64,000 nucleotides of DNA, from assembly GCA_964449445.1 (NCBI GenBank), contig CAYUZT010000006.1, positions 12,223 to 76,222 of the forward strand, in the 5' to 3' direction. Both the position numbers and the translations under genes were made by a program. This document shows positions 2-11,298 of the stretch, piece after piece (the first letter of the stretch is position 1; each line of letters opens with the position of its first letter). This stretch comes from an uncultured Candidatus Peribacteria bacterium. Lineage in GTDB: Bacteria > Patescibacteriota > Gracilibacteria > Peribacterales > Peribacteraceae. The notes beneath the pieces were generated by a model, which was not told the DNA's origin, ran no database searches, and was given only the letters and a program-made list of their open reading frames with translations.

Positions 2-577
2 ACCGAAGATGTGTACAAGTTCGCCGGTGTCAGCCCGGAGGAAGAAATGCTCGGGTCTCCGTGGACTGCCATCCGGATGCGCTACGCGTGGCTCATTATC
101 AACCTGGCGACAGCGTTCCTTGCGTCCTTCGTCGTCTCGCTGTTCCAGAACGTCATCGCGGCGTTCGCGATTCTCGCCGTGTACATGCCGATCGTCGCCG
201 GCATGGGCGGCAATGCCGGAACGCAGGCGCTCGCGGTCACGGTCCGCGGACTCGCGCTCTCCGATATCACAGCGCGGCAGAAATTCTCCCTCATTATCAA
301 GGAAATCCTCACCGGTGCGGCGAACGGCGTCATCAACGGCGTGATCGTTGCAGCCGTCGTGCTCCTGCTCAAGCAGCCGCCGGCGCTCGCCGCAGTGCTG
401 GGCGCAGCCATGGTCATCAACTTAATCGTCGCGGGCATTTTTGGCGCCGTCATTCCGGTGATTCTCAAATCCATGCGTATCGATCCCGCCGTCGCGAGCA
501 CGGTCTTCGTGACCACCGCCACAGACTGCTTCGGCTTCCTTGCGTTCCTCGGCTTGGCTGCAGCATTCATGCGATGA
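2..577 (+). CDS. mgtE: Magnesium transporter MgtE, C-terminal membrane domain (5' end outside window)
   Basis: Reading frame open from window edge; PIVAGMGGNAGTQALAVTVRGLAL and TATDCFGFLAFLGLA strings typical of MgtE TM domain; TGA overlaps next ATG (ATGA). Confidence 0.85.
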   Translation, partial: TEDVYKFAGVSPEEEMLGSPWTAIRMRYAWLIINLATAFLASFVVSLFQNVIAAFAILAVYMPIVAGMGGNAGTQALAVTVRGLALSDITARQKFSLIIKEILTGAANGVINGVIVAAVVLLLKQPPALAAVLGAAMVINLIVAGIFGAVIPVILKSMRIDPAVASTVFVTTATDCFGFLAFLGLAAAFMR

Positions 578-1098
578 ACCGATGCGTTGCCATTGTCGGC
601 ATGAACGGCGTCGGCAAAACCTCCTTCGGTAAACGTCTGGCCTCCACACTCGGCATGAAGCGCATCGATACCGACCAGCTCTTTGAAAAGACTCATGGCA
701 ATACCCACGACTACATCGCGAAGAATGGATGGGAGACGTACAGAGTGGCAGAAGAGAAGATCGTCCTGCAGGCTCTTCGGCCCAATCATGTGGTGACCCT
801 CAGTGGAGGAGCGGTGGAATCTCCGAGCATTCGTGCGGCGCTCAAGGACCGCGCTGTCGTGATCTGGATCCAGGCGGGACCGAAGCGCATTCATAAACAT
901 CTTGAGCGTGCCAAAGTTGCTCGTCCGGAATTTGCCGACGGGCTCCATCACGATGCGGTGAAGACCATGGTGGAAGCGAGGAATCCACACTATGAAGACG
1001 TCGCCGACATCGTTTTATTCCCCTCCACAAGCTACGCTCAACAATTACCTGTCGCTCTGCGTGAGCTTGAGAAATTCTCAGTTCAAAAACTGCAATGA
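574..1098 (+). CDS. aroK: Shikimate kinase-like P-loop kinase
   Basis: ORF-track ORF 61..1098 trimmed to ATG 574; IVGMNGVGKTSFGKRLA (P-loop), IDTDQLFE, LSGGAV pattern as in AroK. Confidence 0.75.
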   Translation: MNRCVAIVGMNGVGKTSFGKRLASTLGMKRIDTDQLFEKTHGNTHDYIAKNGWETYRVAEEKIVLQALRPNHVVTLSGGAVESPSIRAALKDRAVVIWIQAGPKRIHKHLERAKVARPEFADGLHHDAVKTMVEARNPHYEDVADIVLFPSTSYAQQLPVALRELEKFSVQKLQ

Positions 1099-1816: not shown

Positions 1817-2350
1817 ATGGCATCCCTCATCCTCGTCGACGAACACAACGTCCCTCGCGGCAGTGTTACGCGTGAGGTTGCTCATGCGTCCCCGGGAATG
1901 CTCCACCGTGCATTCTCTATTTATATCTTTCGGAAATCCGGAAACGAGATCCTTATTCAGAGACGAAGCGCAGGCAAGCTCTTCGCCGGACTCTGGGCAA
2001 ATACCTGCTGCAGCCATCCACGTGAGGGAGAAGAGATTGTGACTGTTGCACCGCGACGTTTGGAAGAAGAACTCGGCTTCACTTGCCCTCTGAAGATCTT
2101 AGGTAAGTTCACCTATCAGGCAGAAGATCCTCAGGGCAAAGGTGCCGAGCATGAACATGTGACGATCCTAGGCGGTGATATTGAAAATGATGTGACGATT
2201 AAAGCGAATCCCGAGGAAGTCGCTGAGTGGAAGTGGATCGCTGTCATTGAATTACAGAAGGATATGGAGAAAAATCCTGACCACTACGCACCCTGGTTCC
2301 ACATCGGACTCAAGAATATCCTCACCCACAGTAACCAGTTAACGAATTAA
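1817..2350 (+). CDS. idi: Isopentenyl-diphosphate delta-isomerase, type 1
   Basis: HRAFSIYIF...LIQRRSAGKLFAGLWANTCCSHPREGE matches type-1 IDI signature; TACAAT box 7 nt before ATG. Confidence 0.9.
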   Translation: MASLILVDEHNVPRGSVTREVAHASPGMLHRAFSIYIFRKSGNEILIQRRSAGKLFAGLWANTCCSHPREGEEIVTVAPRRLEEELGFTCPLKILGKFTYQAEDPQGKGAEHEHVTILGGDIENDVTIKANPEEVAEWKWIAVIELQKDMEKNPDHYAPWFHIGLKNILTHSNQLTN

Positions 2351-2367: not shown

Positions 2368-3063
2368 TTGCCTCCTTACAACATGGCAACATCTTCTCCC
2401 ATTCACTTGGCTATCATCCCCGACGGCAATCGTCGCTGGGCACGTGCCAGAGCACTTCAACCATGGAAAGGTCACGAAACAGCGATCGAGAATTTCCGCT
2501 CGATCACTGAGTGTTGCCGCAATGATCCGCGCGTCTCTGTGCTCACGGTCTGGTGCTTCTCCACCGAGAACTGGAAACGAGATCAGAAGGAAATCGACAT
2601 GCTCATGCACTATTACGAAGACTACCTGGGCAAGGAGCGGAAGGGCTTTATCGAGAAGAAGACGCGATTCATTCATTCTGGACGGTACGATCGCCTTCCC
2701 TCTACTCTCGCACAGCTGATCCAGGACGTGGAGCAGGAAACGAAGGATCAAACGGAGTTCACTCTCAACTTGGCAGTCGATTACGGTGGCAAAGATGGGC
2801 TGATTCGCGCGATGAAGAAGATCTCTGACCCAAAAGCCGTTACCGAAGAATCCTTTCGGCAGCTGCTCGACCATCCCGAACTTCCCGATATCGACCTGAT
2901 CATCCGCACATCCGGTGAGCAGAGGACGAGCAACTTCTTCCTGTGGGAGAGTGCGTACGCGGAGTGGGTCTTCCTGCAGAAGCATTTTCCCGATTTGACT
3001 GACAAGGATATCGAAAAAGCAGTGGCTGACTTTGCCAGTCGCGCAAGGAGATTTGGGGGGTAA
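2368..3063 (+). CDS. uppS: Undecaprenyl-diphosphate synthase family cis-prenyltransferase
   Basis: HLAIIPDGNRRWA, FSTENWKR, IRTSGEQRTSNFFLWESAYAE signatures; TTG start in track, ATG 2383 also possible. Confidence 0.9.
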   Translation: MPPYNMATSSPIHLAIIPDGNRRWARARALQPWKGHETAIENFRSITECCRNDPRVSVLTVWCFSTENWKRDQKEIDMLMHYYEDYLGKERKGFIEKKTRFIHSGRYDRLPSTLAQLIQDVEQETKDQTEFTLNLAVDYGGKDGLIRAMKKISDPKAVTEESFRQLLDHPELPDIDLIIRTSGEQRTSNFFLWESAYAEWVFLQKHFPDLTDKDIEKAVADFASRARRFGG

Positions 3064-3072
3064 GTACGTAGC

Positions 3073-3141
3073 AATGTCATCCCGAGCGGAGACGAGGGAT
3101 GACTGAAGCGCGTCATGGTTCGTCTCCGCTCACCATGACAT
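3073..3141. repeat. ~70-bp double-hairpin REP-like element, copy A
   Basis: Hairpins gtcatccc-N12-gggatgac (3076-3103) and gtcatggt-N12-accatgac (3112-3139); loops are mutually complementary; inverted near-copy at 35561-35627. Confidence 0.85.
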
Positions 3142-4013
3142 CCTCATCCTTCGCCTCCGGCAAAATGATCCTGAGCGGCGAGTACGCGGTTGTTTTTGGC
3201 TATCCAGGTATCGCGGTGCCAACACCATTCGGCGTGGGGGTGACATGGGAGGACTCTGGAGCGTCGCCGATGACGATCATTGAAAAAGGATTGATCGGTG
3301 ACGAAGCATACGCACGCAAGATTGTGAATCTCTGTATCGAGAAAGGTAGTCCATCGACCGGAACAATCACAATCAACAATCAGATTTTCGTTGGCCGCGG
3401 CGTCGGCTCTTCTACGGCACTCGTGATTGCCATCTGCCGCTGTCTCCTTGGAGAAGATAGTAAAGATGACGCTCTGGAGATCGAAAATACTGTGAATCCC
3501 GGCAATAGCGGCCTCGACTTCGCGGTCATCTGGGCGAATCATCCGGTGAGCTTCATAAAGGGAAAAACTCCCGAGCCAGTAACGCTCAATTTGAATTTTC
3601 TGAAGCACATGACGCTCATGGATACGGGGAAACCTGGTGAGACCACGGCTGAATTGGTCGCGTGGATGACCCTTCGACAAGCTCAGGGTGACAAGAGCGT
3701 CCTTCACGCCCTTGAGACCATTGGCAAGTGCACCGGGCGGCTGCTTGCGGGGGAAGATCTGAAAACAGTGATGCGTGACCATCATCGAGCCCAAGTTTCC
3801 CTCGGCGTCGTTACCAAAGCTGCTCAGGATCTCATCTCTGAGATCGAGAAGATTGGCGGGAGTGCGAAAGTACTAGGCGCGGGAGCGAGGACTGGGGACG
3901 GGGGGATGGTATTGGCTCTCGCACACGAGACGAAAATTCTGGAAAGAATTTGTGCACAGCACAATTACGAATTTATGACATCTGCAAAGGACCCTATGTC
4001 AGAAAAAATGTGA
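3099..4013 (+). CDS. mvk: Mevalonate kinase (GHMP kinase)
   Basis: GKMILSGEYAVVFGYPGIAVP and GRGVGSSTAL GHMP motifs; the first 12 codons lie inside the REP element so ATG 3135 may be the real start. Confidence 0.8.
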   Translation: MTEARHGSSPLTMTSSSFASGKMILSGEYAVVFGYPGIAVPTPFGVGVTWEDSGASPMTIIEKGLIGDEAYARKIVNLCIEKGSPSTGTITINNQIFVGRGVGSSTALVIAICRCLLGEDSKDDALEIENTVNPGNSGLDFAVIWANHPVSFIKGKTPEPVTLNLNFLKHMTLMDTGKPGETTAELVAWMTLRQAQGDKSVLHALETIGKCTGRLLAGEDLKTVMRDHHRAQVSLGVVTKAAQDLISEIEKIGGSAKVLGAGARTGDGGMVLALAHETKILERICAQHNYEFMTSAKDPMSEKM

Positions 4014-4828
4014 TCAAACATCGTTAGGTTTTGTCTGGCCAGGTCTGCACTGGTGACTCCGCTCAGCACCAACAACCGTGTCATCTTAAGTTGCCGTGCG
4101 ACGGGCATGTCGGTTTCAAGGCTATCTCCAAGCATGGCAACCTGTTCTTGAGGAATTTTCATGCGATCCAAACATGCTTGAACAATCCGGGGATGCGGTT
4201 TTCCCATAACATTTGGAACTGCATTCGAGAGACTGTCTGTCGTCGCGAGCAATCGTTGGATAGCTGCTACAAGTGTTCCTGTTCCAGCACGCAGATCTCC
4301 GTTTTCCGTCGTCACCGCGTGATCCATCCCACTCGCGACCCATTGAGCGCCCCTTACCAAAGCGGCGACGGCCGCCTCGATTGTATTGATATTGTAATCG
4401 TGACGAGCAGTCACAATATGAGTCGGCGTGCGTTCTGCAATCCAATTTTTCTTTTTTGGATCCCATACATCATTTTGATAGAGGAAAGCTTCTATACCCA
4501 ACGCATGACATTGCATCCTCAGCTCATCAGGACCGAGAAAGAGTGCTAGAAATTCGCCGCGCGATTGCAACTGCTCTTTGCAGAGGTATTTGGCCACAGC
4601 ATATCCCGCCGTCATAACATCGGCCTCTGCAATCTGTATTCCCTCCCTTCCAAATTTTTTCACGACATCCGATCTCGATCCTGCGCCATTTGAGGCAAAT
4701 GTCATTTTCAATCTCCGCCTTTGAGCTGCATCCAAAAGTTTGAATGCACCATCCTGTAGCTTCTCTCCATGAAACCATACGCCATCTATATCCGTCACGA
4801 TGCCCTTGAGAAAATTCAATGGAGTCAT
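3965..4828 (-). CDS. HAD-superfamily hydrolase, subfamily IIA (NagD-like phosphatase)
   Basis: ORF 3965..5017 trimmed to ATG at 4828 (MTPLNFLKGIVTDIDGVW); DxDG motif, GKPHP, GDSLETDM; longer ORF would overlap mvaD. Confidence 0.75.
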   Translation of the reverse strand: MTPLNFLKGIVTDIDGVWFHGEKLQDGAFKLLDAAQRRRLKMTFASNGAGSRSDVVKKFGREGIQIAEADVMTAGYAVAKYLCKEQLQSRGEFLALFLGPDELRMQCHALGIEAFLYQNDVWDPKKKNWIAERTPTHIVTARHDYNINTIEAAVAALVRGAQWVASGMDHAVTTENGDLRAGTGTLVAAIQRLLATTDSLSNAVPNVMGKPHPRIVQACLDRMKIPQEQVAMLGDSLETDMPVARQLKMTRLLVLSGVTSADLARQNLTMFDHIFSDIGSFADVINS

Positions 4829-4886
4829 GGAAGTGGAGGATCCTAGCAATTTCCATGAGAGATGCAATCCTGTAGCCTTCTTTTCC

Positions 4887-5891
4887 ATGCCCATCTCCGC
4901 CCGCTCCACCCCCAACATCGCCCTCATCAAATACTGGGGCAATCGTAATAACGCTCTGCGCCTTCCTGCAGCGGATTCTCTTTCCATGACGCTTGATTCT
5001 CCGCATGTGGAGATCACTATGGATCATGCAGATTCACTCAGTGTGATGTCCTTTGAAGTGAATGGTTCTGAAAAAAAGCTCACACCAAAGCAGATCGACC
5101 GTTTTCGCAGGCATCTGGAACTCACGAAGGTGTACCTGAAAAAACTCGGCGCAGACAAAGCCATGCCCTCTTCCGTCGTAATCACCGTTCGATCGATGAT
5201 CCCCTCCTCCATCGGCCTCGCATCCTCCGCGGCCGTCTTCGGGTGCCTTGCAAAAGCGTACGCGGGACTGATCCGGGAACACAGTGAGCTCAGTGATGAG
5301 CAAATCAGCGTGATCGCTCGTTTAGGTTCAGGATCTGCCGCCCGGAGCATCTACGGTGGATATGGCGCGCTACTTGCAGGATCCGGAGAGGAGATCGATT
5401 CTTCCAGTGCCGTCCAGATTGCTGATGAGAAGCACTGGCTCCTGCATGACATCATCTTGGTACCAAGCCAAAAGGAAAAGAGTGTGGGTTCCACCGAAGG
5501 TCATGCACTCGCGTGGACGAGTCCGCACTTCGAAGATCGCTTGAAAGCGATGCCGAGGCGACAGAAAGAATGCGCAGATGTCATTCTGCACAAAGATTTC
5601 GAGAAACTGCAGTACGTTGCCGAAGAAGATTGTATGGATATGCACCATGTGATGGAGACGAGTACTCCATCGCTCACGTACTTGAGTGACGTAACGCACA
5701 GAATCATTGACGATATCTCAGCTCTCAGAACAAAGGATCATATTGAGGTTCTCTACACGATGGATGCAGGCCCGACGGTGCATCTGTTCTGTCCGGAAGA
5801 ATCAGTGAACGCGGTTCGAGAGTTTGCGGAGGCACAAAAGGATTGCCAGATAATGGAAGCGCAGACCGGAAAGGGTGCACATTTTCTCTAA
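4887..5891 (+). CDS. mvaD: Diphosphomevalonate (or phosphomevalonate) decarboxylase, GHMP family
   Basis: ORF 4800..5891 trimmed to ATG 4887; PNIALIKYWGNR, GLASSAA, GSGSAARS, MDAGP motifs. Confidence 0.85.
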   Translation: MPISARSTPNIALIKYWGNRNNALRLPAADSLSMTLDSPHVEITMDHADSLSVMSFEVNGSEKKLTPKQIDRFRRHLELTKVYLKKLGADKAMPSSVVITVRSMIPSSIGLASSAAVFGCLAKAYAGLIREHSELSDEQISVIARLGSGSAARSIYGGYGALLAGSGEEIDSSSAVQIADEKHWLLHDIILVPSQKEKSVGSTEGHALAWTSPHFEDRLKAMPRRQKECADVILHKDFEKLQYVAEEDCMDMHHVMETSTPSLTYLSDVTHRIIDDISALRTKDHIEVLYTMDAGPTVHLFCPEESVNAVREFAEAQKDCQIMEAQTGKGAHFL

Positions 5892-5951: not shown

Positions 5952-6197
5952 ATGCCAAAGGACATCTCCATTAAGGAATTGCGCGAGAATCTTGCAAGAG
6001 TGGCTGACCGAGCGGAGCGCGGAGAAACCTTCCGTGTGATCCGACGCTCAAAGCCATCGTTCATCATTATGAACGTCGGTCTCGATGATTCTGATGACGC
6101 ATGGGAAGGAGTGGATTTCACTGATGGCGGCAAAACGAAAGGGGTGCCTATTGAGAAAGTGATGAAAGAGCTCAACAAAATCCGGAGCCGCCGCTAA
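5952..6197 (+). CDS. Phd/YefM-type antitoxin
   Basis: 81 aa, ISIKELRENLARVADRAERGETFRVIRRSKP typical Phd/YefM N-terminus; 2 nt before toxin gene. Confidence 0.7.
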   Translation: MPKDISIKELRENLARVADRAERGETFRVIRRSKPSFIIMNVGLDDSDDAWEGVDFTDGGKTKGVPIEKVMKELNKIRSRR

Positions 6198-6199
6198 GT

Positions 6200-6442
6200 A
6201 TGGAACAATGGATAAAGCAGCTTCGAAAAGCTCCACGGCACTATCAAGATCGCATTGGCAGAACGCTTCCTCAAATCTTCTCGAGAAATCTAGCAGGATT
6301 GAACTGGAAAAAATTGAAAGGCTATGAAGATCTTTTCCGGGTTCGCATAGGAGACTACCGGATTATCTACCACGACAATGGAAAGGAAATTATGATCATG
6401 GCGATTTCACCGAAAAGCGATACTACATACAACGATTTGTAG
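6200..6442 (+). CDS. RelE/ParE-family toxin
   Basis: 80 aa; FRVRIGDYRIIYHDNGKEIMIMAISPKSDTTY matches RelE/ParE core; stop 1 nt before hmgA ATG. Confidence 0.7.
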   Translation: MEQWIKQLRKAPRHYQDRIGRTLPQIFSRNLAGLNWKKLKGYEDLFRVRIGDYRIIYHDNGKEIMIMAISPKSDTTYNDL

Positions 6443-6443
6443 G

Positions 6444-7667
6444 ATGGATCTCCGCTCCCTCCCCACCGGCCTTACTCCTGAGCAACGTTGTACTGAACGC
6501 CGTTCGCACGTCGAACACGCGCTCTCCATTGATCTATTCGCACTCACTCCACGAGAAGGCTCCATCGGCCACGCTGATGAGAAAAACTGCGAGCAAATGC
6601 TCGGTCATGTGCCGATCCCGGTGGGGTACGCAGGACCATTGAAGGTGACATTCAGTTCTGGAGAGACGTCGGAGATCCATCTACCACTCGCAACCACCGA
6701 AGGCGCATTGGTCGCGAGCGTGAACAGAGGGTGCAAAGCGCTTTCGCAAGCAGGAGGAGTACGTTTGAGCTCCATTCATCATGGAATGACGCGCTCAATG
6801 GCTTTTCGTGCCGCAGATATCCAGAATCTTTCTGCAATTCTCAAAAAACGAGAAGCAGAGTGGAAGCAGATAGGGCATTCAACCAGCAATCACCTGAAAA
6901 TTCTGACGTACGACGTTGATATCAAGGATGATCACCTCTTTCTGACAATTTCTTGCGACACCGACGAAGCAATGGGCATGAATATGGTGACGATTGCCGC
7001 GCAGAAGATTGGAGAATGGATAGAATCCGAGTGTGATGACGTAACGTTTGTGACAGTCGCGGGAAATGTGGATAGCGATAAGAAGCCCAGCAAGCGAACG
7101 CATGACCGCGGTCGTGGATACGAAGTAACGGCGACTGCCGAAATTTCGGAAGAAGTCCTCAAAGAAGTTCTCAAAACTTCCAGTGAAGCAATGCTCGCAA
7201 CCGCGCATGCCAAGCTCACACTCGGATCCGAGATTGCCGGAGCAATCGGACGTAATTTGCACGCAGCAAATATTTTCGCCGCTCTCTACCTCGCAACCGG
7301 TCAGGATGCAGCTCACGTCGTTGAAGGCTCATTAACAGAAACTACCATCCAACCCCTGCCCACCGTAGCCTCGGCAAAGGTGGGATCCAACCATTCAGCC
7401 CCTGCCCACCGTAGCCTTGGCGAAGGTGGGATTCGCATATCCGTCCGCTGCCCGGCCATTCTCGTCGGTATCCGTGGTGGTGGCACGACCCTCCCCGCAC
7501 AATCTCAGTGTTTGCAGATGTTGATGAAGCCGAAAACCGCGCTACATCCGAAAGCTCAACTTGCCGAAAGCATCGGTGCCGCGGTGCTCGCGGGGGAGAT
7601 TTCACTGCTTGCAGCCCAGGCAAGCCATTCTTTAGCACAGGCACACACAAGGCTTGGTCGTACGTAA
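6444..7667 (+). CDS. hmgA: HMG-CoA reductase, class I, soluble (with in-frame repeat insertion)
   Basis: EKNCEQMLGHVPIPVGYAGPL, PLATTEGALVASVNRGCKA, DEAMGMNMV, GGGTTLPAQ, VLAGEISLLAA signatures. Confidence 0.9.
   Translation: MDLRSLPTGLTPEQRCTERRSHVEHALSIDLFALTPREGSIGHADEKNCEQMLGHVPIPVGYAGPLKVTFSSGETSEIHLPLATTEGALVASVNRGCKALSQAGGVRLSSIHHGMTRSMAFRAADIQNLSAILKKREAEWKQIGHSTSNHLKILTYDVDIKDDHLFLTISCDTDEAMGMNMVTIAAQKIGEWIESECDDVTFVTVAGNVDSDKKPSKRTHDRGRGYEVTATAEISEEVLKEVLKTSSEAMLATAHAKLTLGSEIAGAIGRNLHAANIFAALYLATGQDAAHVVEGSLTETTIQPLPTVASAKVGSNHSAPAHRSLGEGGIRISVRCPAILVGIRGGGTTLPAQSQCLQMLMKPKTALHPKAQLAESIGAAVLAGEISLLAAQASHSLAQAHTRLGRT
7347..7430 (+). repeat. Two tandem REP-like units (CTGCCCACCGTAGCCYYGGCRAAGGTGGG) inside hmgA coding sequence
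   Basis: Direct reading; each unit has CCCACC/GGTGGG stem; related copies at 14504-14541, 34731-34764 (inverted), 51872-51903. Confidence 0.85.
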
Positions 7668-8111
7668 GTGAACGAGTATAGTCCGCTACTTCTCGCCAAT
7701 GCTTCTATGTTTACAAGATCCACTATTGCTCGAATGGTTGAGGGCGAAATAAATACATGTGACATGTATTGTAATAGAATTAAAGTAGCGGAAGCGGTTC
7801 TCATTAAACCACCACGGGAACTTGTTCCACGCAGCATCGCAATTGCAAAAGCCATTCGAGAAATTAATGATTATTATATACTGCTTCATTTCATGCTTCT
7901 CGCAATAGAAGACAAAGAACTGCAACAACTTGCGAGAATAGATGTGGAAAAAGAAGAAGATGAAAAAGCTATTGAAACCAAGCACAAATCGCTTGTCCAT
8001 GATATGGGAATAGACACTGGACTCGCCGCCAGACTTTGGCGAACAGATGAGATTCACAGGAACCTTCCGGAACTCAAGAAAATTGCACAATCTTTACAAA
8101 AAGACGATTAA
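7668..8111 (+). CDS. Hypothetical protein (visibly AT-rich island between hmgA and HMG-CoA synthase)
   Basis: 147-aa ORF, GTG start abutting hmgA stop; no recognisable motif; composition clearly AT-richer than flanks by eye. Confidence 0.4.
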   Translation: MNEYSPLLLANASMFTRSTIARMVEGEINTCDMYCNRIKVAEAVLIKPPRELVPRSIAIAKAIREINDYYILLHFMLLAIEDKELQQLARIDVEKEEDEKAIETKHKSLVHDMGIDTGLAARLWRTDEIHRNLPELKKIAQSLQKDD

Positions 8112-8143: not shown

Positions 8144-9169
8144 ATGCAAAAATCCGCGATTGTCGGTTTCGGCAGATACTTGCCAAAGTATCGGGTGAAA
8201 ACGGCCTCCATCGCTCTCCATCACGGTCAGGATCCCAAAGGGGTCGTTGCTGGTCTTGGAATCAGCGAAAAAACCGTTCCCGGGCGCGATGAAGATAGCT
8301 ACACGATGGCGTTTGAAGCCGCGCGTCAGGCGATGGAGATTGCAGAGATTCAGTCGTCGGAAGTTTCCGCGATCTTTGTGGGAAGCGAGAGTCACCCGTA
8401 TGCCGTGAAGCCGACGAGCTCGATGCTCGCATCGAGTTTGGATTTGCACCCATTCTGTCACTGTGCGGATTTGGAATTCGCCTGCAAGGCAGGAACGGCA
8501 GGAATGCAGATCGTTGACTCGATGATTCGTGCTGGGCAAGTGCAGTACGGAATGGCGATTGGCACCGATACCGCGCAGGGCCGTCCCGGTGATGCACTGG
8601 AGTACACAGCGGCAGCAGGTGCAGCGGCATTTGTGTTGGGATCGGAAAAATCGAAGAACGCTCTCTGCAAAATTGAGAGCACGCTCTCGTTCACCACCGA
8701 TACTCCCGATTTTTGGAGACCGACTGGCGAAAAGTATCCCCACCACGCAGGACGCTTTACCGGGGAGCCCGCATACTTCCGCCATATGAAGGAAGCAACG
8801 CAGGGCATTCTCGCGATTGCACATCTCAAGCCACAGGACATCACGCATGTCGTGTTCCACATGCCGAACGCGAAGTTTCCAAAGACTATAGGAAAGAAAC
8901 TGGGCTTCACACAGGAGCAAATGGAGCTGGGATTCATCGTCCCACAGATTGGAAACACGTACAGTGCCTGCTCCCCTCTTGGGCTCACCTATGTTTTAGA
9001 GCATGCGAAAAAGAACGACACGATTCTGCTGGTCTCCTACGGTTCGGGTTCCGGCTCCGATGCGTTCATCATGACCATGGTCAAAGATGGCGTGAAGTTG
9101 AGCCCCGATGATCGTGAACCTGTATATCTCACCTACGACCAATACCTTGAGCACTCTCACGCCATTTAA
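8144..9169 (+). CDS. HMG-CoA synthase, archaeal type
   Basis: IVGFGRYLPKYRV, GSESHPYAVKPTS, DLEFACKAGT (active Cys), ALEYTAAAGAAAFVLG; TAGACT 7 nt before ATG. Confidence 0.85.
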   Translation: MQKSAIVGFGRYLPKYRVKTASIALHHGQDPKGVVAGLGISEKTVPGRDEDSYTMAFEAARQAMEIAEIQSSEVSAIFVGSESHPYAVKPTSSMLASSLDLHPFCHCADLEFACKAGTAGMQIVDSMIRAGQVQYGMAIGTDTAQGRPGDALEYTAAAGAAAFVLGSEKSKNALCKIESTLSFTTDTPDFWRPTGEKYPHHAGRFTGEPAYFRHMKEATQGILAIAHLKPQDITHVVFHMPNAKFPKTIGKKLGFTQEQMELGFIVPQIGNTYSACSPLGLTYVLEHAKKNDTILLVSYGSGSGSDAFIMTMVKDGVKLSPDDREPVYLTYDQYLEHSHAI

Positions 9170-9223: not shown

Positions 9224-10348
9224 ATGACCTCCGACATCCACCTGATCGGCACCGGCCAAACGCGCTTTGGCGAACTGTGGGACAAAGGCATCAGAGAGCT
9301 GATGGAAGAAGCAGTTGATGCGGCCATTGCCTCGTCACCGTGCACAGCTCTCGATATCGACATGATTATCGTCAGCAATATGCTCGCAGAGGTGACGAAC
9401 AATCAGGCACACCTGAGCGCAATCGCATCGTCTCTGCTCCCTCACCATCCCCCGGCACTGCGCATCGAATCCGCCTGCGGCTCGGGCGCATTCGCGTTAC
9501 ACACCGCATGTGCGATGCTCGAAAGCGGCAGAGCGAAGAATGTGCTTGTGATCGGCGTGGAGAAAATGACGGACGTCTCGGTGGAAGCGGTCGCATCTGC
9601 ACTAATGGGCGCTGCCGATAGCGAAGAAGAGCGCCCCGCAGGGCTCACGTTCCCCGGCATTTTCGGTCTGGTCGCGCAGCGGTACATGCACGAGTACGGG
9701 CTCAGCCGCGACGATTTAAGCCTCGTGAGCGCCGTCCATCACCAGAACGCAGTCGAAAATCCCTTCGCACAATTCCGTTCAGCCATCACGCCGGAAACGG
9801 TGAGTGGAAGTGCCCTCATTTCTGATCCTCTGCGATTGCTCGACTGCTCACCGATTTCTGACGGTGCTGCCGCCTGCATTCTCTCCACTGAGCATGTGAG
9901 TTCGTGCCGTATTGCGGCATCGCAGATCGCGAGTGATTCCCTCAGCATTATCCACCGTCCCGTCATCACGTCCTTCTCTGCAACGAAAGATGCCGCCGAA
10001 CGCGCACTGAGCGAAGCGTCCATCAAACTTGCCGACGTGAAGGTCTTGGAAACCCATGACTGCTTCTCCATCGCGGCCCTCATCAATCTGGAGGATTTGG
10101 GCTTCAGAGATCCCGGACAGGGAATTGAGATCTACCGCGATCTCCATGGAAAGCGCGCTTCCGATGTCCATGTAAACCGCAGTGGCGGCCTCAAAGGCTG
10201 CGGCCATCCTGTTGGCGCAACCGGCATCAAACAACTGATCGATGTCTCTAAACAGCTGCAGAAGACCGGAGAGCGCTACGGACTCGCGCACAACTTCGGC
10301 GGCGCCTGCGCAACATGTGGAGTTCATGTTCTTGAGTACACAGCATAA
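9224..10348 (+). CDS. Acetyl-CoA acetyltransferase (archaeal/SCP-x-type thiolase)
   Basis: IESACGSGAFAL (active Cys), CSPISDGAAA, HDCFSIA, GHPVGATG, NFGGACATC. Confidence 0.85.
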   Translation: MTSDIHLIGTGQTRFGELWDKGIRELMEEAVDAAIASSPCTALDIDMIIVSNMLAEVTNNQAHLSAIASSLLPHHPPALRIESACGSGAFALHTACAMLESGRAKNVLVIGVEKMTDVSVEAVASALMGAADSEEERPAGLTFPGIFGLVAQRYMHEYGLSRDDLSLVSAVHHQNAVENPFAQFRSAITPETVSGSALISDPLRLLDCSPISDGAAACILSTEHVSSCRIAASQIASDSLSIIHRPVITSFSATKDAAERALSEASIKLADVKVLETHDCFSIAALINLEDLGFRDPGQGIEIYRDLHGKRASDVHVNRSGGLKGCGHPVGATGIKQLIDVSKQLQKTGERYGLAHNFGGACATCGVHVLEYTA

Positions 10349-10383: not shown

Positions 10384-11298
10384 TTGTTTACTCCACCAAT
10401 CCTCCACCGCGCCCAAGCCAAAAAGCGCCGCAAGCTCCAGCCCGGCACCGTGCTCTCCTGGACGACGATGACACATCCACTGTCGGGATTCGGTAATCGG
10501 CCCCGAACCGTCGGTCTGATCGCGCTCCAGGATGGAACGCGCGCGCTGGGGCAACTGCTCGGAACGCCCGCTATCGGCAGCTCCGTGCGCCCGCGCATGA
10601 GTCTTTCGTCAGTAAGCGCGGAGGGACTACGTATCTACGATGTCGCGTACGAAGTGATGGCGGAAGTCCCCTCGAAGATCTTCGAAGTGAAAAATTTTCC
10701 GGGCTACATTCTTGCTCTCACAGGTCCCTCAGGTGTCGGCAAAACCACCGTCAACCGGCTGCTGGTGAGCATGTTCAGCGAATACGTGGAGAGTGTTCCC
10801 ATTTTGACGACGCGGGAACGACGAAAGGGTGATGACGGCGAGTATCGGTACGTGACAAAAGAGAAATTCACGGAGTCTATCCGTAGCCGTGACATGATCT
10901 CATTTACGCAGATTCCCTCGAACACCGAGGAGCGCTGGTACGGCTACCTCCACACCGATATTGAGAAAATCTGGAAGAAAGGAAAACTCCCCGTGGTGAT
11001 CACCGAAATGCATCTGCTGCGGGATCTCGCCGAACACTATGGCCGCCGTTCCATTTTGAGCTTCGGGCTGCTGCCCCCCGGCAAGAGCAAGCGCGCGATG
11101 CTCAGCGCCCTCCTCCACCGCCTGCGCGAACGCGGGCGCGATGCCGAGGAGCACATCAAGGACCGCCTGAAGAATGCAGTCAAAGATCTGGAGTTCTTCC
11201 GCGAGCGAGCGGATTTGTTCGATCGGATTCTCGTGAATGATGATCTCCAGGTGGTCGTAGAGGCAGTTCGGCAGCATGTGCCGGGGCTCCAGGGTTAG
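10384..11298 (+). CDS. Fusion: DUF35-like OB-fold domain (N) + guanylate kinase-like P-loop domain (C)
   Basis: N: LQPGTVLSWTTMTHPLSGFGNRPRTVGLIALQDGTRALGQL...IGSSV resembles DUF35 OB fold; C: LTGPSGVGKTT, ILTTRERRKGDDGEYRYV, WYGY as in Gmk; TTG start. Confidence 0.6.
   Translation: MFTPPILHRAQAKKRRKLQPGTVLSWTTMTHPLSGFGNRPRTVGLIALQDGTRALGQLLGTPAIGSSVRPRMSLSSVSAEGLRIYDVAYEVMAEVPSKIFEVKNFPGYILALTGPSGVGKTTVNRLLVSMFSEYVESVPILTTRERRKGDDGEYRYVTKEKFTESIRSRDMISFTQIPSNTEERWYGYLHTDIEKIWKKGKLPVVITEMHLLRDLAEHYGRRSILSFGLLPPGKSKRAMLSALLHRLRERGRDAEEHIKDRLKNAVKDLEFFRERADLFDRILVNDDLQVVVEAVRQHVPGLQG

What the first reader, a model, noticed from the sequence alone, without database searches (positions are those of the whole stretch)
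10384..11298. DUF35-like OB-fold fused to a guanylate-kinase-like domain directly after archaeal-type HMG-CoA synthase and thiolase
Seen directly: the N-terminal ~100 aa (LQPGTVLSWTTMTHPLSGFGNRPRTVGLIALQDGTRALGQLLGTPAIGSSVRPRM...GLRIYDVAYEV) fit the DUF35 OB-fold pattern, without the usual N-terminal Cys4 ribbon. The C-terminal ~200 aa carry LTGPSGVGKTT, TTRERRKGDDGEYRYV and a Gmk-like layout. Established: in archaea a DUF35 protein scaffolds the thiolase/HMG-CoA synthase complex, and the three genes are typically adjacent. Animal phosphomevalonate kinase is an NMP-kinase-fold P-loop enzyme rather than a GHMP kinase. Inference A: the fusion simply tethers Gmk to the complex. Inference B (speculative): the kinase domain supplies the phosphomevalonate or isopentenyl-phosphate kinase step that is missing from this cluster.
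Basis: partly seen in the sequence, partly recalled or inferred. Interest (0 to 1): 0.6.

Follow-up and report, generated by a model that had tools for sequence, protein, structure and literature searches.

The report
Scaffold domain fused to isoprenoid kinase
The last gene of this ultra-small bacterium's mevalonate operon joins the docking domain of the first two pathway enzymes to a guanylate-kinase look-alike that has lost its guanine-reading residues; it is the best candidate for the pathway's one missing kinase, probably isopentenyl phosphate to isopentenyl diphosphate, a step no enzyme of this fold is known to perform.

Summary
ORF 10384-11298 (304 aa, TTG start) has two parts:
- An N-terminal helix plus OB fold. 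Its best sequence and structure matches are the DUF35 subunits of thiolase/HMG-CoA-synthase complexes. It has no zinc ribbon.
- A guanylate-kinase-fold domain.

The genome is from Peregrinibacteria (family Peribacteraceae). It carries a separate, canonical gmk. The fused kinase keeps the P-loop, the LID arginines and the four residues that hold the acceptor phosphate. All guanine-reading residues are replaced by Ile, Ala/Ser, Tyr or Ile/Val.

The genome has only two GHMP proteins (MVK and a decarboxylase), no amino-acid-kinase-type IPK, no PF04275 and no IspH. The decarboxylase carries the phosphomevalonate-decarboxylase specificity residues, so the missing step is IP to IPP.

Across 41 family genomes the fusion tracks HMG-CoA reductase: 28 of 29 with it, and the 29th is cut by a contig end. 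Sister-family genomes use a classical IPK and an OB-only DUF35. Only the two genomes with a third GHMP kinase show decay, and only in the kinase domain. Standalone relatives sit beside idi and uppS.

Best reading: a scaffold-tethered, non-orthologous IP kinase (about 0.55). Phosphomevalonate kinase remains possible. I found no description in the searchable literature.

The parts
10384..11298 (+). Whole gene: DUF35-type OB domain fused to a Gmk-fold kinase, 304 aa, TTG start. It is the last gene of the mevalonate operon.
   Evidence: ORF. Start supported by alignment with more than 100 homologues and by the sequence. Pfam PF01796 plus PF00625. Full-length AF2 model, pLDDT 86.
10396..10434 (+). 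N-terminal helix, residues 5-17, with the conserved PPI-HRA motif (Arg9 nearly invariant).
   Evidence: DSSP on the AF2 models. Conservation.
10444..10656 (+). Five-stranded OB barrel, residues 21-91. This is the DUF35 C-terminal domain without the Cys4 zinc ribbon and is the presumed docking module for thiolase/HMGCS.
   Evidence: PF01796, 32 bits against 27.1. Profile hit to 6ESQ_E, E 5e-9, DUF35 residues 49-127. Foldseek top 17 hits are all DUF35 subunits.
10657..10698 (+). Variable linker, residues 92-105.
   Evidence: Low conservation and length variation. pLDDT dips to 68-75.
10699..11283 (+). Guanylate-kinase-fold domain, residues about 106-300.
   Evidence: PF00625, E 5e-18. TIGR03263 92 bits, below the 160 cut-off. 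Foldseek TM 0.85-0.89 to 1GKY, 1LVG and 9JAF.
10723..10749 (+). P-loop G114-PSGVGK-T-T122 (ATP site).
   Evidence: Invariant in 107 homologues and 28 species.
10801..10845 (+). Acceptor-site segment I140-L-T-T-R144-E-R-R147...Y154. Arg144, Arg147 and Tyr154 correspond to yeast Guk1 Arg38, Arg41 and Tyr50, which hold the acceptor phosphate. Ile140 replaces Ser34.
   Evidence: Alignment to 1GKY. Position table: R 26/26, K/R 24/26, Y 26/26, I 26/26.
10900..10947 (+). Remodelled base pocket, S173...I177-P-S-N-T-E-E-R184-W-Y186-G-Y188. Ser173 replaces Glu69. A four-residue insert carries near-invariant Pro178, Ser179, Glu182 and Arg184. Tyr186 corresponds to Tyr78. Tyr188 replaces Ser80.
10999..11010 (+). 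I206-T207-E208-M209. Ile/Val replaces Asp98, and the invariant Glu208 is at the Asp100 position.
11119..11166 (+). LID segment R246-L-R248-E-R250-G-R252...R261, with the catalytic arginines kept.
   Evidence: Invariant columns. Positions 131, 135, 137 and 146.
9224..10348 (+). Archaeal-type acetoacetyl-CoA thiolase, the presumed partner of the OB domain.
   Evidence: NF004720 376 bits; NF053570 (Methanothermococcus thiolase model) 336 bits.
8144..9169 (+). Archaeal-type HMG-CoA synthase, the presumed partner of the OB domain.
   Evidence: NF003274 439 bits against 244; TIGR00748 400 bits against 353.
6444..7667 (+). Class I HMG-CoA reductase.
   Evidence: PF00368, 308 bits.
4887..5891 (+). GHMP decarboxylase with phosphomevalonate-decarboxylase-type specificity residues (YWG-N, R27, GSTEG-H). 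The likely start is Met30 of the 4800 ORF.
   Evidence: Best PDB hit is Anaerolinea PMD 6N0X. Residue comparison with 6N0X, 6N0Z, 6N10 and 5GMD. Dellas 2013 Table 4. Family table.
3099..4013 (+). CPR-type mevalonate kinase (GHMP) with the SG-L-D motif.
   Evidence: TIGR00549 86 bits. Best PDB hits are bacterial MVKs 2X7I and 2OI2, with no PMK hit. 27% identical over the full length to the MVK of the IPK-using genome G093.
2368..3063 (+). Undecaprenyl diphosphate synthase UppS.
   Evidence: TIGR00055 197 bits against 110.
1817..2350 (+). Type 1 IPP isomerase.
   Evidence: NF002995 140 bits against 127; TIGR02150 116 bits against 106.

Best explanation
The gene encodes a two-module protein.

Module 1 (residues 1-95) is a minimal DUF35: an N-terminal helix plus an OB barrel, with no zinc ribbon. 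By homology with the archaeal thiolase/HMG-CoA-synthase/DUF35 complex, it docks onto the thiolase and HMGCS encoded just upstream. This step is inferred, not shown.

Module 2 (residues about 106-300) is a catalytically competent P-loop kinase derived from guanylate kinase. It keeps the ATP site, the LID arginines and the Arg/Arg/Tyr/Tyr cluster that positions an acceptor phosphate. Its guanine pocket has been rebuilt with hydrophobic and small residues. It therefore most likely transfers phosphate from ATP to a small alkyl phosphate monoester rather than to GMP.

In this organism the mevalonate route reads: thiolase, HMGCS, HMGR, MVK, a phosphomevalonate-decarboxylase-type decarboxylase, then IDI and UppS. 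It lacks any recognisable isopentenyl phosphate kinase. I propose that module 2 is that kinase (IP + ATP -> IPP + ADP), a non-orthologous replacement of the amino-acid-kinase-fold IPK. Activity on mevalonate 5-phosphate, instead or in addition, is not excluded. The fusion would place the last IPP-forming enzyme on the complex that performs the first two steps.
For: Shown by tools:
1. Domain identities are established.
2. A separate gmk keeps every GMP-binding residue.
3. In 26 of 26 typical species the equivalents of yeast Guk1 Arg38, Tyr50 and Tyr78, the P-loop Lys and the LID Arg residues are invariant, and Arg41 is K/R in 24 of 26. The guanine readers are replaced: Ser34 to Ile (26/26), Glu69 to Ala/Ser/Thr, Ser80 to Tyr (26/26), Asp98 to Ile/Val.
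4. The pathway has one hole. The genome (97.6% complete) holds only two GHMP proteins. Its only two AA-kinase proteins are PyrH and ProB. It has no PF04275, and no IspH occurs in any of 43 genomes.
5. The decarboxylase has Asn at the Lys21 site, Arg at the Ile27 site and His at the Met196 site. These match wild-type Anaerolinea PMD 6N0X. The mutant structure 6N0Z, which I take to be the engineered specificity-switch form, differs from 6N0X at exactly N->K and H->M in the aligned region. True DMDs have K and M. Dellas et al. 2013 Table 4 gives the same rule. All 24 majority-type (type A) family decarboxylases read at both sites are N/H (one more, cut by its contig, shows N), plus two more from related Peregrinibacteria contigs.
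6. Phyletic pattern in 301 class genomes: the fusion occurs only in the window's own family. It is present in 28 of 29 HMGR+ genomes. The 29th (G156) has its contig end inside the operon. It is absent from 11 of 12 HMGR- genomes.
7. The two MVA-bearing genomes of sister family f8 have no Gmk-like kinase. In G093 a classical IPK sits next to the decarboxylase, and an OB-only 92-aa protein follows the thiolase. In G171 the IPK lies in a cluster with IDI and a weak GHMP hit that is probably the decarboxylase.
8. Operon order idi-uppS-mvk-decarboxylase-hmgr-hmgcs-thiolase-fusion is conserved, with overlapping or abutting genes, in distant family members.
9. Natural experiment: only G082 and G227 carry a third GHMP kinase. 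They rank 1st and 2nd of 28 for deviation at conserved kinase-domain columns (16 and 9 of 74; next 6; median 1-2), while their OB domains are typical. G082 has lost the Arg38, Arg41 and Tyr50 equivalents.
10. Standalone kinases with the same remodelled pocket sit in idi-uppS-kinase or uppS-phosphatase-kinase clusters.
11. G092 has no HMGR, no GHMP protein and no IspH but keeps an intact standalone copy, where a PMK would have no substrate.

Published background: Anantharaman et al. 2016 called the Peribacteria pathway 'near-complete', naming all steps but the one after mevalonate-5-P. Hoshino & Gaucher 2018 note that IPK in CPR is syntenic with idi even without other MVA genes.
Against: - No biochemical data exist.
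- G268 has an intact kinase and only two GHMP genes, but its decarboxylase is a xenolog with Lys at the Lys21 site ('YMGK', with His at the second site). If that enzyme needs the diphosphate, the kinase there must act on mevalonate 5-phosphate.
- In a sparsely sampled ML tree, the majority-type decarboxylases branch beside the two DMD references, not beside Anaerolinea PMD.
- The specificity-residue rule rests on one engineered pair of structures and one published table. I could not read the primary paper.
- G092 lacks IDI as well, so the use of its standalone kinase is unclear.
- The extra GHMP gene in G082 and G227 scores as a mevalonate kinase. How it would make the Gmk-like kinase dispensable is inferred, not shown.
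- The two relaxation events share a related gene cassette and may not be fully independent.
- The invariant Arg184 and Glu182 in the insert could equally serve a polar substrate such as phosphomevalonate.
- Docking of the OB domain to thiolase/HMGCS is by homology only, and the zinc ribbon of canonical DUF35 is missing.
Confidence: 0.55

Rival explanations
1. The kinase domain is a phosphomevalonate kinase (mevalonate 5-phosphate to 5-diphosphate), the decarboxylase is a classical diphosphomevalonate decarboxylase, and the route is the eukaryote-type pathway with a non-GHMP PMK, as in animals.
For: - The chemistry fits equally well, because the acceptor is again a phosphate monoester.
- TIGR01240 (DMD model) scores 190 bits, above its 171 cut-off.
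- The majority-type decarboxylases branch next to DMD references in a small tree.
- G268 combines a Lys21-type decarboxylase with an intact kinase.
- Anantharaman et al. 2016 read the gap as the step after mevalonate-5-P.
- The invariant Arg184 in the pocket insert could bind a carboxylate.
Against: - The Asn/Arg27/His signature of the decarboxylase equals the PMD type.
- The best solved-structure match is a PMD: 162 bits against 133.
- Sister-family genomes with MVA use PMD-like decarboxylases plus IPK. A PMK role would therefore need two changes rather than one.
- Standalone relatives occur beside idi and uppS, and in a genome without MVK or decarboxylase (G092), where M5P could be neither made nor used.
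- The pocket substitutions are hydrophobic.
Confidence: 0.17
2. The kinase-fold domain is mainly non-catalytic, or acts on an unrelated substrate. It would be a structural or regulatory appendage of the DUF35 scaffold (like MAGUK guanylate-kinase-like domains), and the missing pathway kinase lies elsewhere or the intermediate is imported.
For: - Some fusions have clearly degenerate catalytic motifs yet stay behind hmgcs-thiolase: P0127 and P0130 with GVGR P-loops, and G082. The domain can therefore be kept without catalysis.
- CPR bacteria are symbionts that import many metabolites.
- Full-model pTM is only 0.62, so the arrangement of the two domains is unknown.
Against: - In 26 of 28 species the P-loop, the LID arginines and the acceptor-phosphate residues are invariant. 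That argues for catalysis.
- Decay is seen only where a third GHMP kinase exists.
- Standalone copies without any scaffold domain keep the same active-site residues.
Confidence: 0.15
3. The shikimate-kinase-like protein at window 574-1098, next to a Nudix gene and idi, is the missing pathway kinase, and the Gmk-like domain does something else.
For: - It is an orphan P-loop kinase (PF01202, 105 bits) that falls below every NCBIfam equivalog cut-off.
- It lies at the head of the cluster in this genome and about 5 kb from the cluster in G127.
- NCBIfam lists a shikimate-kinase-family member that has become a homoserine kinase.
Against: - PF01202 has no match at all in 15 of 29 HMGR+ family genomes, including both genomes of the same genus.
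- It is not in the operons of L008-L011.
- Most family hits are roughly 600-aa ORFs, possibly AroK fused to another shikimate-pathway enzyme.
Confidence: 0.04
4. It is a genuine guanylate kinase tethered to the thiolase/HMGCS complex.
For: Pfam and fold place it in the guanylate kinase family, and several databases name homologues 'guanylate kinase'.
Against: - All guanine-recognition positions are replaced.
- TIGR03263 scores 92 bits against a cut-off of 160.
- A separate gmk with the full residue set exists.
- Presence follows HMGR, not genome-wide need for GDP.
Confidence: 0.03

Closest known systems
Guanylate kinase (Gmk/Guk1, EC 2.7.4.8; PF00625, TIGR03263; yeast 1GKY, mouse 1LVG)
   Same: Same fold (TM 0.85-0.89). 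Same P-loop and LID arginines. The four residues that bind the acceptor phosphate (Arg38, Arg41, Tyr50, Tyr78) are kept. The chemistry is the same: ATP to a phosphate monoester.
   Different: The guanine readers Ser34, Glu69, Ser80 and Asp98 are replaced by Ile, Ala/Ser, Tyr and Ile/Val. A four-residue insert carries an invariant Arg. The score is below the equivalog cut-off. The domain is fused to an OB domain and encoded in a mevalonate operon. The cell has another, canonical gmk.
DUF35 subunit of the archaeal acetoacetyl-CoA thiolase/HMG-CoA synthase complex (PDB 6ESQ/6ET9); also MucABC, PhlB, BbsA-type, ChsH2 and Shy DUF35 modules
   Same: The OB barrel is the best sequence-profile and fold match. 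The gene directly follows archaeal-type HMGCS and thiolase.
   Different: It lacks the N-terminal Cys4 zinc ribbon; the alignment starts at DUF35 residue 49. It carries a roughly 200-aa kinase at its C-terminus. The sister family has a 92-aa OB-only version.
Isopentenyl phosphate kinase (EC 2.7.4.26; amino-acid-kinase fold, PF00696, NF040647)
   Same: The proposed reaction and pathway position are the same. The two have complementary distributions: IPK in sister-family MVA genomes, the Gmk-like kinase in this family. Standalone copies lie beside idi and uppS, as Hoshino & Gaucher reported for CPR IPK.
   Different: The folds are unrelated (P-loop NMP-kinase fold against amino-acid-kinase fold). 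This is a case of working like an IPK, not of membership.
Animal phosphomevalonate kinase (PF04275)
   Same: It is a precedent for a P-loop, NMP-kinase-fold enzyme replacing a GHMP kinase in the lower mevalonate pathway (general knowledge).
   Different: There is no detectable sequence similarity: PF04275 finds nothing in the genome. The substrate is probably IP rather than M5P.
MAGUK guanylate-kinase-like domains (e.g. the engineered case 4F4J)
   Same: A Gmk fold that has lost GMP recognition and serves within a scaffold. The degenerate variants G082, P0127 and P0130 resemble this.
   Different: In most family members the catalytic machinery is intact. MAGUK domains are eukaryotic protein-binding modules.

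Membership tests
Guanylate kinase (PF00625 / TIGR03263, EC 2.7.4.8) | Pfam domain above the gathering score, and the Gmk fold | tested here: met
   PF00625 65.9 bits against 25.2. Foldseek TMt 0.85-0.89, rmsd 2.1-2.3 to 1GKY, 1LVG and 9JAF.
Guanylate kinase (PF00625 / TIGR03263, EC 2.7.4.8) | Equivalog-level score (TIGR03263 at or above 160.45 bits) | tested here: not met
   92 bits for the fusion. The genome's other gmk scores 134 bits, also below the cut-off but far higher.
Guanylate kinase (PF00625 / TIGR03263, EC 2.7.4.8) | Guanine-recognition residues (yeast Ser34, Glu69, Ser80, with Asp98/Asp100) | tested here: not met
   Ile, Ser/Ala, Tyr, Ile/Val and Glu at these positions in 26 of 26 typical species. 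The C4 Gmk keeps S, E, T, E, D.
Guanylate kinase (PF00625 / TIGR03263, EC 2.7.4.8) | P-loop lysine, LID arginines and acceptor-phosphate residues (Arg38, Arg41, Tyr50, Tyr78) | tested here: met
   Invariant or K/R in 24-26 of 26 species.
Guanylate kinase (PF00625 / TIGR03263, EC 2.7.4.8) | GMP kinase activity | not testable with these tools
   Needs an enzyme assay.
DUF35 (PF01796 OB_ChsH2_C + PF12172 zinc ribbon) | C-terminal OB-fold domain | tested here: met
   PF01796 32.0 bits against 27.1. 6ESQ_E E 5e-9. Foldseek top 17 hits are all DUF35 subunits.
DUF35 (PF01796 OB_ChsH2_C + PF12172 zinc ribbon) | N-terminal Cys4 rubredoxin-like zinc ribbon | tested here: not met
   No conserved Cys in residues 1-98. 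No Pfam zinc-ribbon hit. The profile aligns only to DUF35 residues 49-127.
DUF35 (PF01796 OB_ChsH2_C + PF12172 zinc ribbon) | Encoded next to a thiolase-superfamily partner (here archaeal-type thiolase and HMGCS) | tested here: met
   Window order HMGCS-thiolase-fusion. The same order is found in L008-L011, L013, L020, L021 and L053.
DUF35 (PF01796 OB_ChsH2_C + PF12172 zinc ribbon) | Physical scaffolding of the thiolase/HMGCS complex | not testable with these tools
   Needs co-purification or a structure.
Isopentenyl phosphate kinase (amino-acid-kinase family, NF040647/PF00696) | Amino-acid-kinase fold and family HMM match | tested here: not met
   The fusion has no PF00696 or NF040647 hit. 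The genome's two PF00696 proteins are PyrH and ProB. The claim is functional analogy only.
Animal-type phosphomevalonate kinase (PF04275) | Family HMM match | tested here: not met
   No match in the whole genome at E <= 10.
Phosphomevalonate decarboxylase (for the neighbouring gene 4887-5891) | Non-Lys at the S. epidermidis Lys21 site, Arg at the Ile27 site, non-Met at the Met196 site | tested here: met
   Asn, Arg and His, identical to wild-type Anaerolinea PMD 6N0X. DMDs 6N10 and 5GMD have Lys, Ile/Asn and Met.
Phosphomevalonate decarboxylase (for the neighbouring gene 4887-5891) | Phylogenetic placement with characterised PMDs | tested here: inconclusive
   phmmer favours the PMD (162 against 133 bits). 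A tree with three reference sequences places the clade next to the DMDs.

The most novel reading that the evidence does not exclude
The Gmk-fold kinase is a third, independently evolved isopentenyl phosphate kinase, after the amino-acid-kinase-fold IPK. In Peribacteraceae it is welded through a minimal DUF35 OB domain onto the thiolase/HMG-CoA-synthase complex, so that the first two and the last IPP-forming reactions share one particle. Its standalone relatives, paired with a small histidine phosphatase next to uppS and idi, would form a natural salvage or buffering module for isopentenyl phosphate in bacteria that cannot make mevalonate.
Probability: 0.35. Interest if true: 0.8.

Novelty: new variant of a known kind. 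Interest (0 to 1): 0.68.

Why it matters
- It would close the pathway hole that made the Peribacteria mevalonate route 'near-complete' in 2016, and explain how these bacteria make the lipid carrier for their cell wall. No MEP-pathway IspH was found in any of the 43 genomes searched.
- It would add a new protein fold to the short list of enzymes that make IPP. This would be another non-orthologous displacement in a pathway already known for them.
- It would give metabolic engineers a small P-loop IP kinase to test in isopentenol-utilisation routes.
- It shows a DUF35 scaffold carrying a catalytic passenger, which suggests metabolon-like organisation.
- It corrects routine annotation. Homologues are labelled 'guanylate kinase' or 'OB-fold domain-containing protein', and this genome's own gene call is truncated so that the OB domain is invisible.

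Tried and rejected
- **Shikimate-kinase-like gene (574-1098) as the missing kinase.** Rejected as a general answer: PF01202 is absent from 15 of 29 HMGR+ family genomes and from the conserved operon.
- **Hidden classical enzymes.** Searches for a third GHMP kinase, an AA-kinase IPK and PF04275 found none.
- **MEP pathway as an alternative IPP source.** IspH is absent in all 43 genomes.
- **CPR-type 'MVK-like' gene as the PMK, with the Gmk-like domain as the mevalonate kinase.** Disfavoured for four reasons. Its best PDB hits are MVKs only. It carries the SG-L-D motif. It is 27% identical over the full length to the sole GHMP kinase of the IPK-using genome G093. The decarboxylase residues are PMD-type.
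- **Decarboxylase tree.** With only three reference sequences it gave a placement that conflicts with the residue signature. I treat it as inconclusive.
- **Contexts of the degenerate-P-loop fusions P0127 and P0130, and of standalone P0128.** The contigs are too short to count GHMP genes.
- **Intermediate-scoring kinase hits in families f30/f31** (G237, G261, G133). They are ordinary Gmks with all guanine residues.
- **hhalign of the G093 92-aa protein to the OB profile.** Weak result: probability 42%, E 2.6e-4.
- **Primary paper on PMD engineering** (Thomas et al. 2019). Not held in the library. I used the two deposited sequences and a citing paper instead.
- **Pocket geometry.** It could not be measured because model coordinates are not exposed.
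Full report
**What is there**

The window is C6:12223-76222 of a 1.40-Mb genome that is 97.6% complete. Named close homologues place it in Candidatus Peregrinibacteria, family Peribacteraceae.

ORF 10384-11298(+) encodes 304 aa. Its TTG start lies 35 nt after the thiolase stop. It aligns with the ATG starts of more than 100 homologues of 302-310 aa. The database gene call for this genome (P0001, 276 aa) begins at Met29 and so hides the N-terminal domain.

The surrounding cluster:

| Window position | Gene |
|---|---|
| 574-1098 | shikimate-kinase-like gene |
| 1132-1797 | Nudix |
| 1817-2350 | IDI-1 |
| 2368-3063 | UppS |
| 3099-4013 | MVK-like GHMP kinase |
| 3965-5017 | HAD hydrolase, opposite strand |
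| 4800/4887-5891 | GHMP decarboxylase |
| 5952-6442 | toxin-antitoxin pair |
| 6444-7667 | class I HMGR |
| 7668-8111 | 147-aa unknown |
| 8144-9169 | archaeal-type HMGCS |
| 9224-10348 | archaeal-type thiolase |
| 10384-11298 | the fusion |

**The two halves**

- Residues 21-71 pass the Pfam gathering score for OB_ChsH2_C, the DUF35 OB domain (32.0 against 27.1 bits).
- A profile of residues 1-98 from 19 species finds, as its best hit among all PDB sequences, the 'Pfam DUF35' chain of the Methanothermococcus thiolase/HMGCS complex (6ESQ_E, E 5e-9). It aligns only to residues 49-127 of that protein, the OB part.
- The AlphaFold model of this domain (pLDDT 87.6) is one helix plus a five-stranded barrel.
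- Its 17 best Foldseek hits are all DUF35 subunits of thiolase-type complexes.
- No cysteine is conserved, so the zinc ribbon is absent.
- Residues 111-297 match Guanylate_kin (E 5e-18) and superpose on GMP-bound guanylate kinases at TM 0.85-0.89. They reach only 92 of the 160 bits that NCBI requires for the name.

**Not the cell's guanylate kinase**

A second gene at C4:22236-22802 scores 134 bits. I aligned yeast Guk1 (as printed), that gene, 28 species-level fusion proteins fetched from GTDB genomes, and six standalone relatives. The table gives residues at yeast Guk1 positions.

| Yeast Guk1 position | C4 gmk | 26 typical fusions |
|---|---|---|
| Ser34 | S | Ile, 26/26 |
| Arg38 | R | Arg, 26/26 |
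| Arg41 | R | Lys or Arg, 24/26 |
| Tyr50 | Y | Tyr, 26/26 |
| Glu69 | E | Ala, Ser or Thr |
| Tyr78 | Y | Tyr, 26/26 |
| Ser80 | T | Tyr, 26/26 |
| Asp98 | E | Ile or Val |
| Asp100 | D | Glu, 26/26 |

The C4 protein therefore keeps GMP-compatible residues at all these positions. In the fusions, the P-loop Lys and the LID Arg131, Arg135 and Arg146 equivalents are also invariant. A four-residue insert carries near-invariant Pro178, Ser179, Glu182 and Arg184.

From established knowledge of Guk1, Arg38, Arg41, Tyr50 and Tyr78 hold the GMP phosphate, while Ser34, Glu69 and Ser80 read the base. The domain therefore looks like an active kinase for a phosphate monoester whose non-phosphate part is no longer guanosine and is probably less polar.

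**The pathway hole**

- The genome has just two GHMP-family proteins, the MVK-like gene and the decarboxylase.
- Its only amino-acid-kinase-fold proteins are PyrH and ProB.
- It has no animal-type PMK.
- IspH is absent from it and from 42 relatives.
- Anantharaman et al. (PeerJ 2016) already described the Peribacteria pathway as 'near-complete'. They listed the steps to mevalonate-5-P and from mevalonate-5-PP onward.

**Which step is missing**

The answer depends on the decarboxylase.
- Its best solved relative is Anaerolinea thermophila phosphomevalonate decarboxylase: 6N0X at 162 bits, against 133 for the best diphosphomevalonate decarboxylase. The identity of 6N0X as AthPMD with bound MVA5P is stated in PMC9254496.
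- In the printed alignments, the mutant structure 6N0Z differs from wild-type 6N0X at exactly two positions in the aligned region: YWG-N to K, and GSTQG-H to M. I take it to be the engineered specificity-switch form. The true DMDs 6N10 and 5GMD have K and M. The window's enzyme has N and H.
- Table 4 of Dellas et al. (eLife 2013) gives the same rule and adds Arg at the Ile27 site for PMDs. The window has Arg there.
- All 24 majority-type family decarboxylases that could be read at both sites are N/H with Arg27, and a 25th (G245, cut by its contig) shows N and Arg27. Two more from related Peregrinibacteria contigs are also N/H.

The route therefore reads MVK, PMD, then an IP kinase that is not otherwise encoded.

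**Comparative tests**

- In 301 genomes sampled across the class, full-length fusions occur only in the window's own family.
- Of the 41 family genomes, 29 have HMGR. Twenty-eight of these have the fusion. The exception, G156, has its contig end inside HMGCS.
- Eleven of the 12 HMGR-negative genomes lack the fusion.
- HMGR-positive family genomes have two GHMP proteins and no credible IPK.
- The operon order idi-uppS-mvk-decarboxylase-hmgr-hmgcs-thiolase-fusion is kept in members only 57-65% identical, with overlapping or abutting genes.
- The only other MVA-bearing genomes in the class sample, G093 and G171 of family f8, have no Gmk-like kinase but do have a classical IPK. In G093 it is adjacent to the decarboxylase. 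In G171 it clusters with IDI and a weak GHMP hit that is probably the decarboxylase.
- In G093 the thiolase is followed by a 92-aa ORF that weakly matches the OB profile.

A single displacement of IPK by a Gmk paralogue that became fused to the OB protein is the most economical history.

**A natural experiment**

Only G082 and G227 carry a third GHMP kinase. It is an archaeal-type MVK (TIGR00549 190 bits against a cut-off of 163) that sits beside a xenologous decarboxylase.
- Across 74 kinase-domain columns conserved in at least 85% of 28 species, these two genomes deviate at 16 and 9 positions. They rank first and second. The next value is 6 and the median is 1-2.
- In 22 conserved OB-domain columns they deviate at 1 and 2 positions, which is typical.
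- G082 has lost the Arg38, Arg41 and Tyr50 equivalents and Arg184. G227 has lost Thr207, Glu208 and Arg184.
- The chance that the two such genomes occupy the top two ranks is 1 in 378. The cassettes are related, so independence is imperfect.

The pattern indicates that the kinase activity, not the OB domain, becomes dispensable when another small-molecule kinase arrives. Metagenomic fusions with GVGR P-loops (P0127, P0130) still sit after hmgcs-thiolase. So the domain can persist as a scaffold part.

**Standalone relatives**

A search of 1.84 billion representative proteins found only 28 with E <= 1e-30. These include kinase-only proteins of about 200 aa that share the remodelled pocket. Their contexts:
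- idi-uppS-kinase, with abutting genes (L077);
- uppS, a short histidine phosphatase, then the kinase (L047, L076);
- a histidine phosphatase then the kinase, among cell-envelope glycan genes (L048, L049).

Family genome G092 has no HMGR, no GHMP protein and no IspH, yet keeps an intact standalone copy.

Hoshino & Gaucher (2018) reported the same behaviour for CPR IPK: synteny with idi even where other MVA genes are missing. A phosphomevalonate kinase would have no substrate in such settings.

**Caveats**

- G268 pairs an intact kinase with a Lys21-type xenologous decarboxylase and has no third GHMP gene.
- A sparsely sampled tree places the majority decarboxylases next to DMDs.
- G092 lacks IDI.
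- The extra GHMP gene in G082 and G227 scores as an MVK, so the way it relieves the Gmk-like kinase is inferred.

I therefore put IP kinase at about 0.55 and phosphomevalonate kinase at about 0.17. The remaining probability goes to a non-catalytic role or another substrate. A tethered true Gmk, or the shikimate-kinase-like gene as the general answer, are close to excluded; the latter is absent from 15 of 29 HMGR+ genomes.

**Novelty**

Full-text searches for DUF35 with guanylate kinase, IPK with guanylate kinase, and Peregrinibacteria with mevalonate found no description of this protein. Earlier AI follow-ups in this scan reached the same reading on orthologues in seven other genomes. I saw those notes only after reaching my own conclusion, and they are not independent evidence.

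New in this report:
- the specificity-residue argument across the family;
- the sister-family IPK/OB-only contrast;
- the kinase-domain-specific relaxation in the two genomes with a third GHMP kinase;
- the idi-uppS-kinase and phosphatase-kinase contexts of the standalone relatives;
- the distributional rejection of the shikimate-kinase-like rival.

Noticed in passing
window 574-1098 (+): An orphan shikimate-kinase-family gene (PF01202, 105 bits, below all NCBIfam equivalog cut-offs) heads the isoprenoid cluster, followed by a Nudix gene and idi. The genome has a second SKI domain inside a 701-aa ORF on C1. Short standalone SKI ORFs (about 180-280 aa; the window's own copy is a 174-aa gene) occur in only five of the 41 family genomes, one of them 5 kb from the MVA cluster (G127). 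Substrate unknown.
   Followed up: partly
window 10384-10467: The public gene call for this genome (P0001, 276 aa) starts at Met29. It loses the helix and first strand of the OB domain, so its precomputed Pfam list shows only kinase families. The true start is the TTG at 10384, judged by homology.
   Followed up: yes
L013 9870-11834 (G082) and L014 12672-14614 (G227): A two-gene cassette lies on the strand opposite to the rest of the operon. It consists of an archaeal-type mevalonate kinase and a xenologous decarboxylase ('Y[WM]GRK', 54% identical to each other, 27-30% to the family's usual type). G268 (L053 5295-6320) has the same decarboxylase type ('YMGK') in the native position, without the extra kinase.
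   Followed up: partly
L012 5282-5560 (G093, sister family): A 92-aa ORF directly after the thiolase, with a helix plus an OB-like pattern and no Pfam hit above threshold. It is probably a minimal DUF35 without a zinc ribbon. The same operon carries a classical IPK (7144-7866).
   Followed up: partly
L047 5073-6187; L048 2710-3929; L049 719-1953; L076 9490-10642: Standalone Gmk-like kinases of this family are preceded by a short His_Phos_1 phosphatase gene, which overlaps or abuts the kinase gene in L047-L049 and lies 19 nt upstream in L076. The pair often lies next to uppS, WecG, WecB and Wzy-type genes. This could be a kinase/phosphatase pair acting on isoprenoid phosphates. It is untested.
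   Followed up: partly
window 5952-6442 and 7668-8111: A toxin-antitoxin pair sits between the decarboxylase and hmgR, and a 147-aa ORF with no family match sits between hmgR and hmgcs. In the more distant operons L008-L011 these genes are absent and the flanking genes abut.
   Followed up: no
window 3965-5017 (-) against 4800-5891 (+): The HAD-hydrolase ORF on the minus strand overlaps the longest-ORF version of the decarboxylase by 218 nt. Homology suggests the decarboxylase starts at Met30 (4887), and the HAD gene probably starts downstream of its first GTG, so the overlap is likely smaller.
   Followed up: no
L015 7498-8256 (-) (G092): A family genome without HMGR, GHMP kinases, IspH or IDI keeps an intact kinase-only homologue with a 55-aa non-OB N-terminal extension. 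It lies between CAP-domain secreted-protein genes and secY-adk-map.
   Followed up: partly
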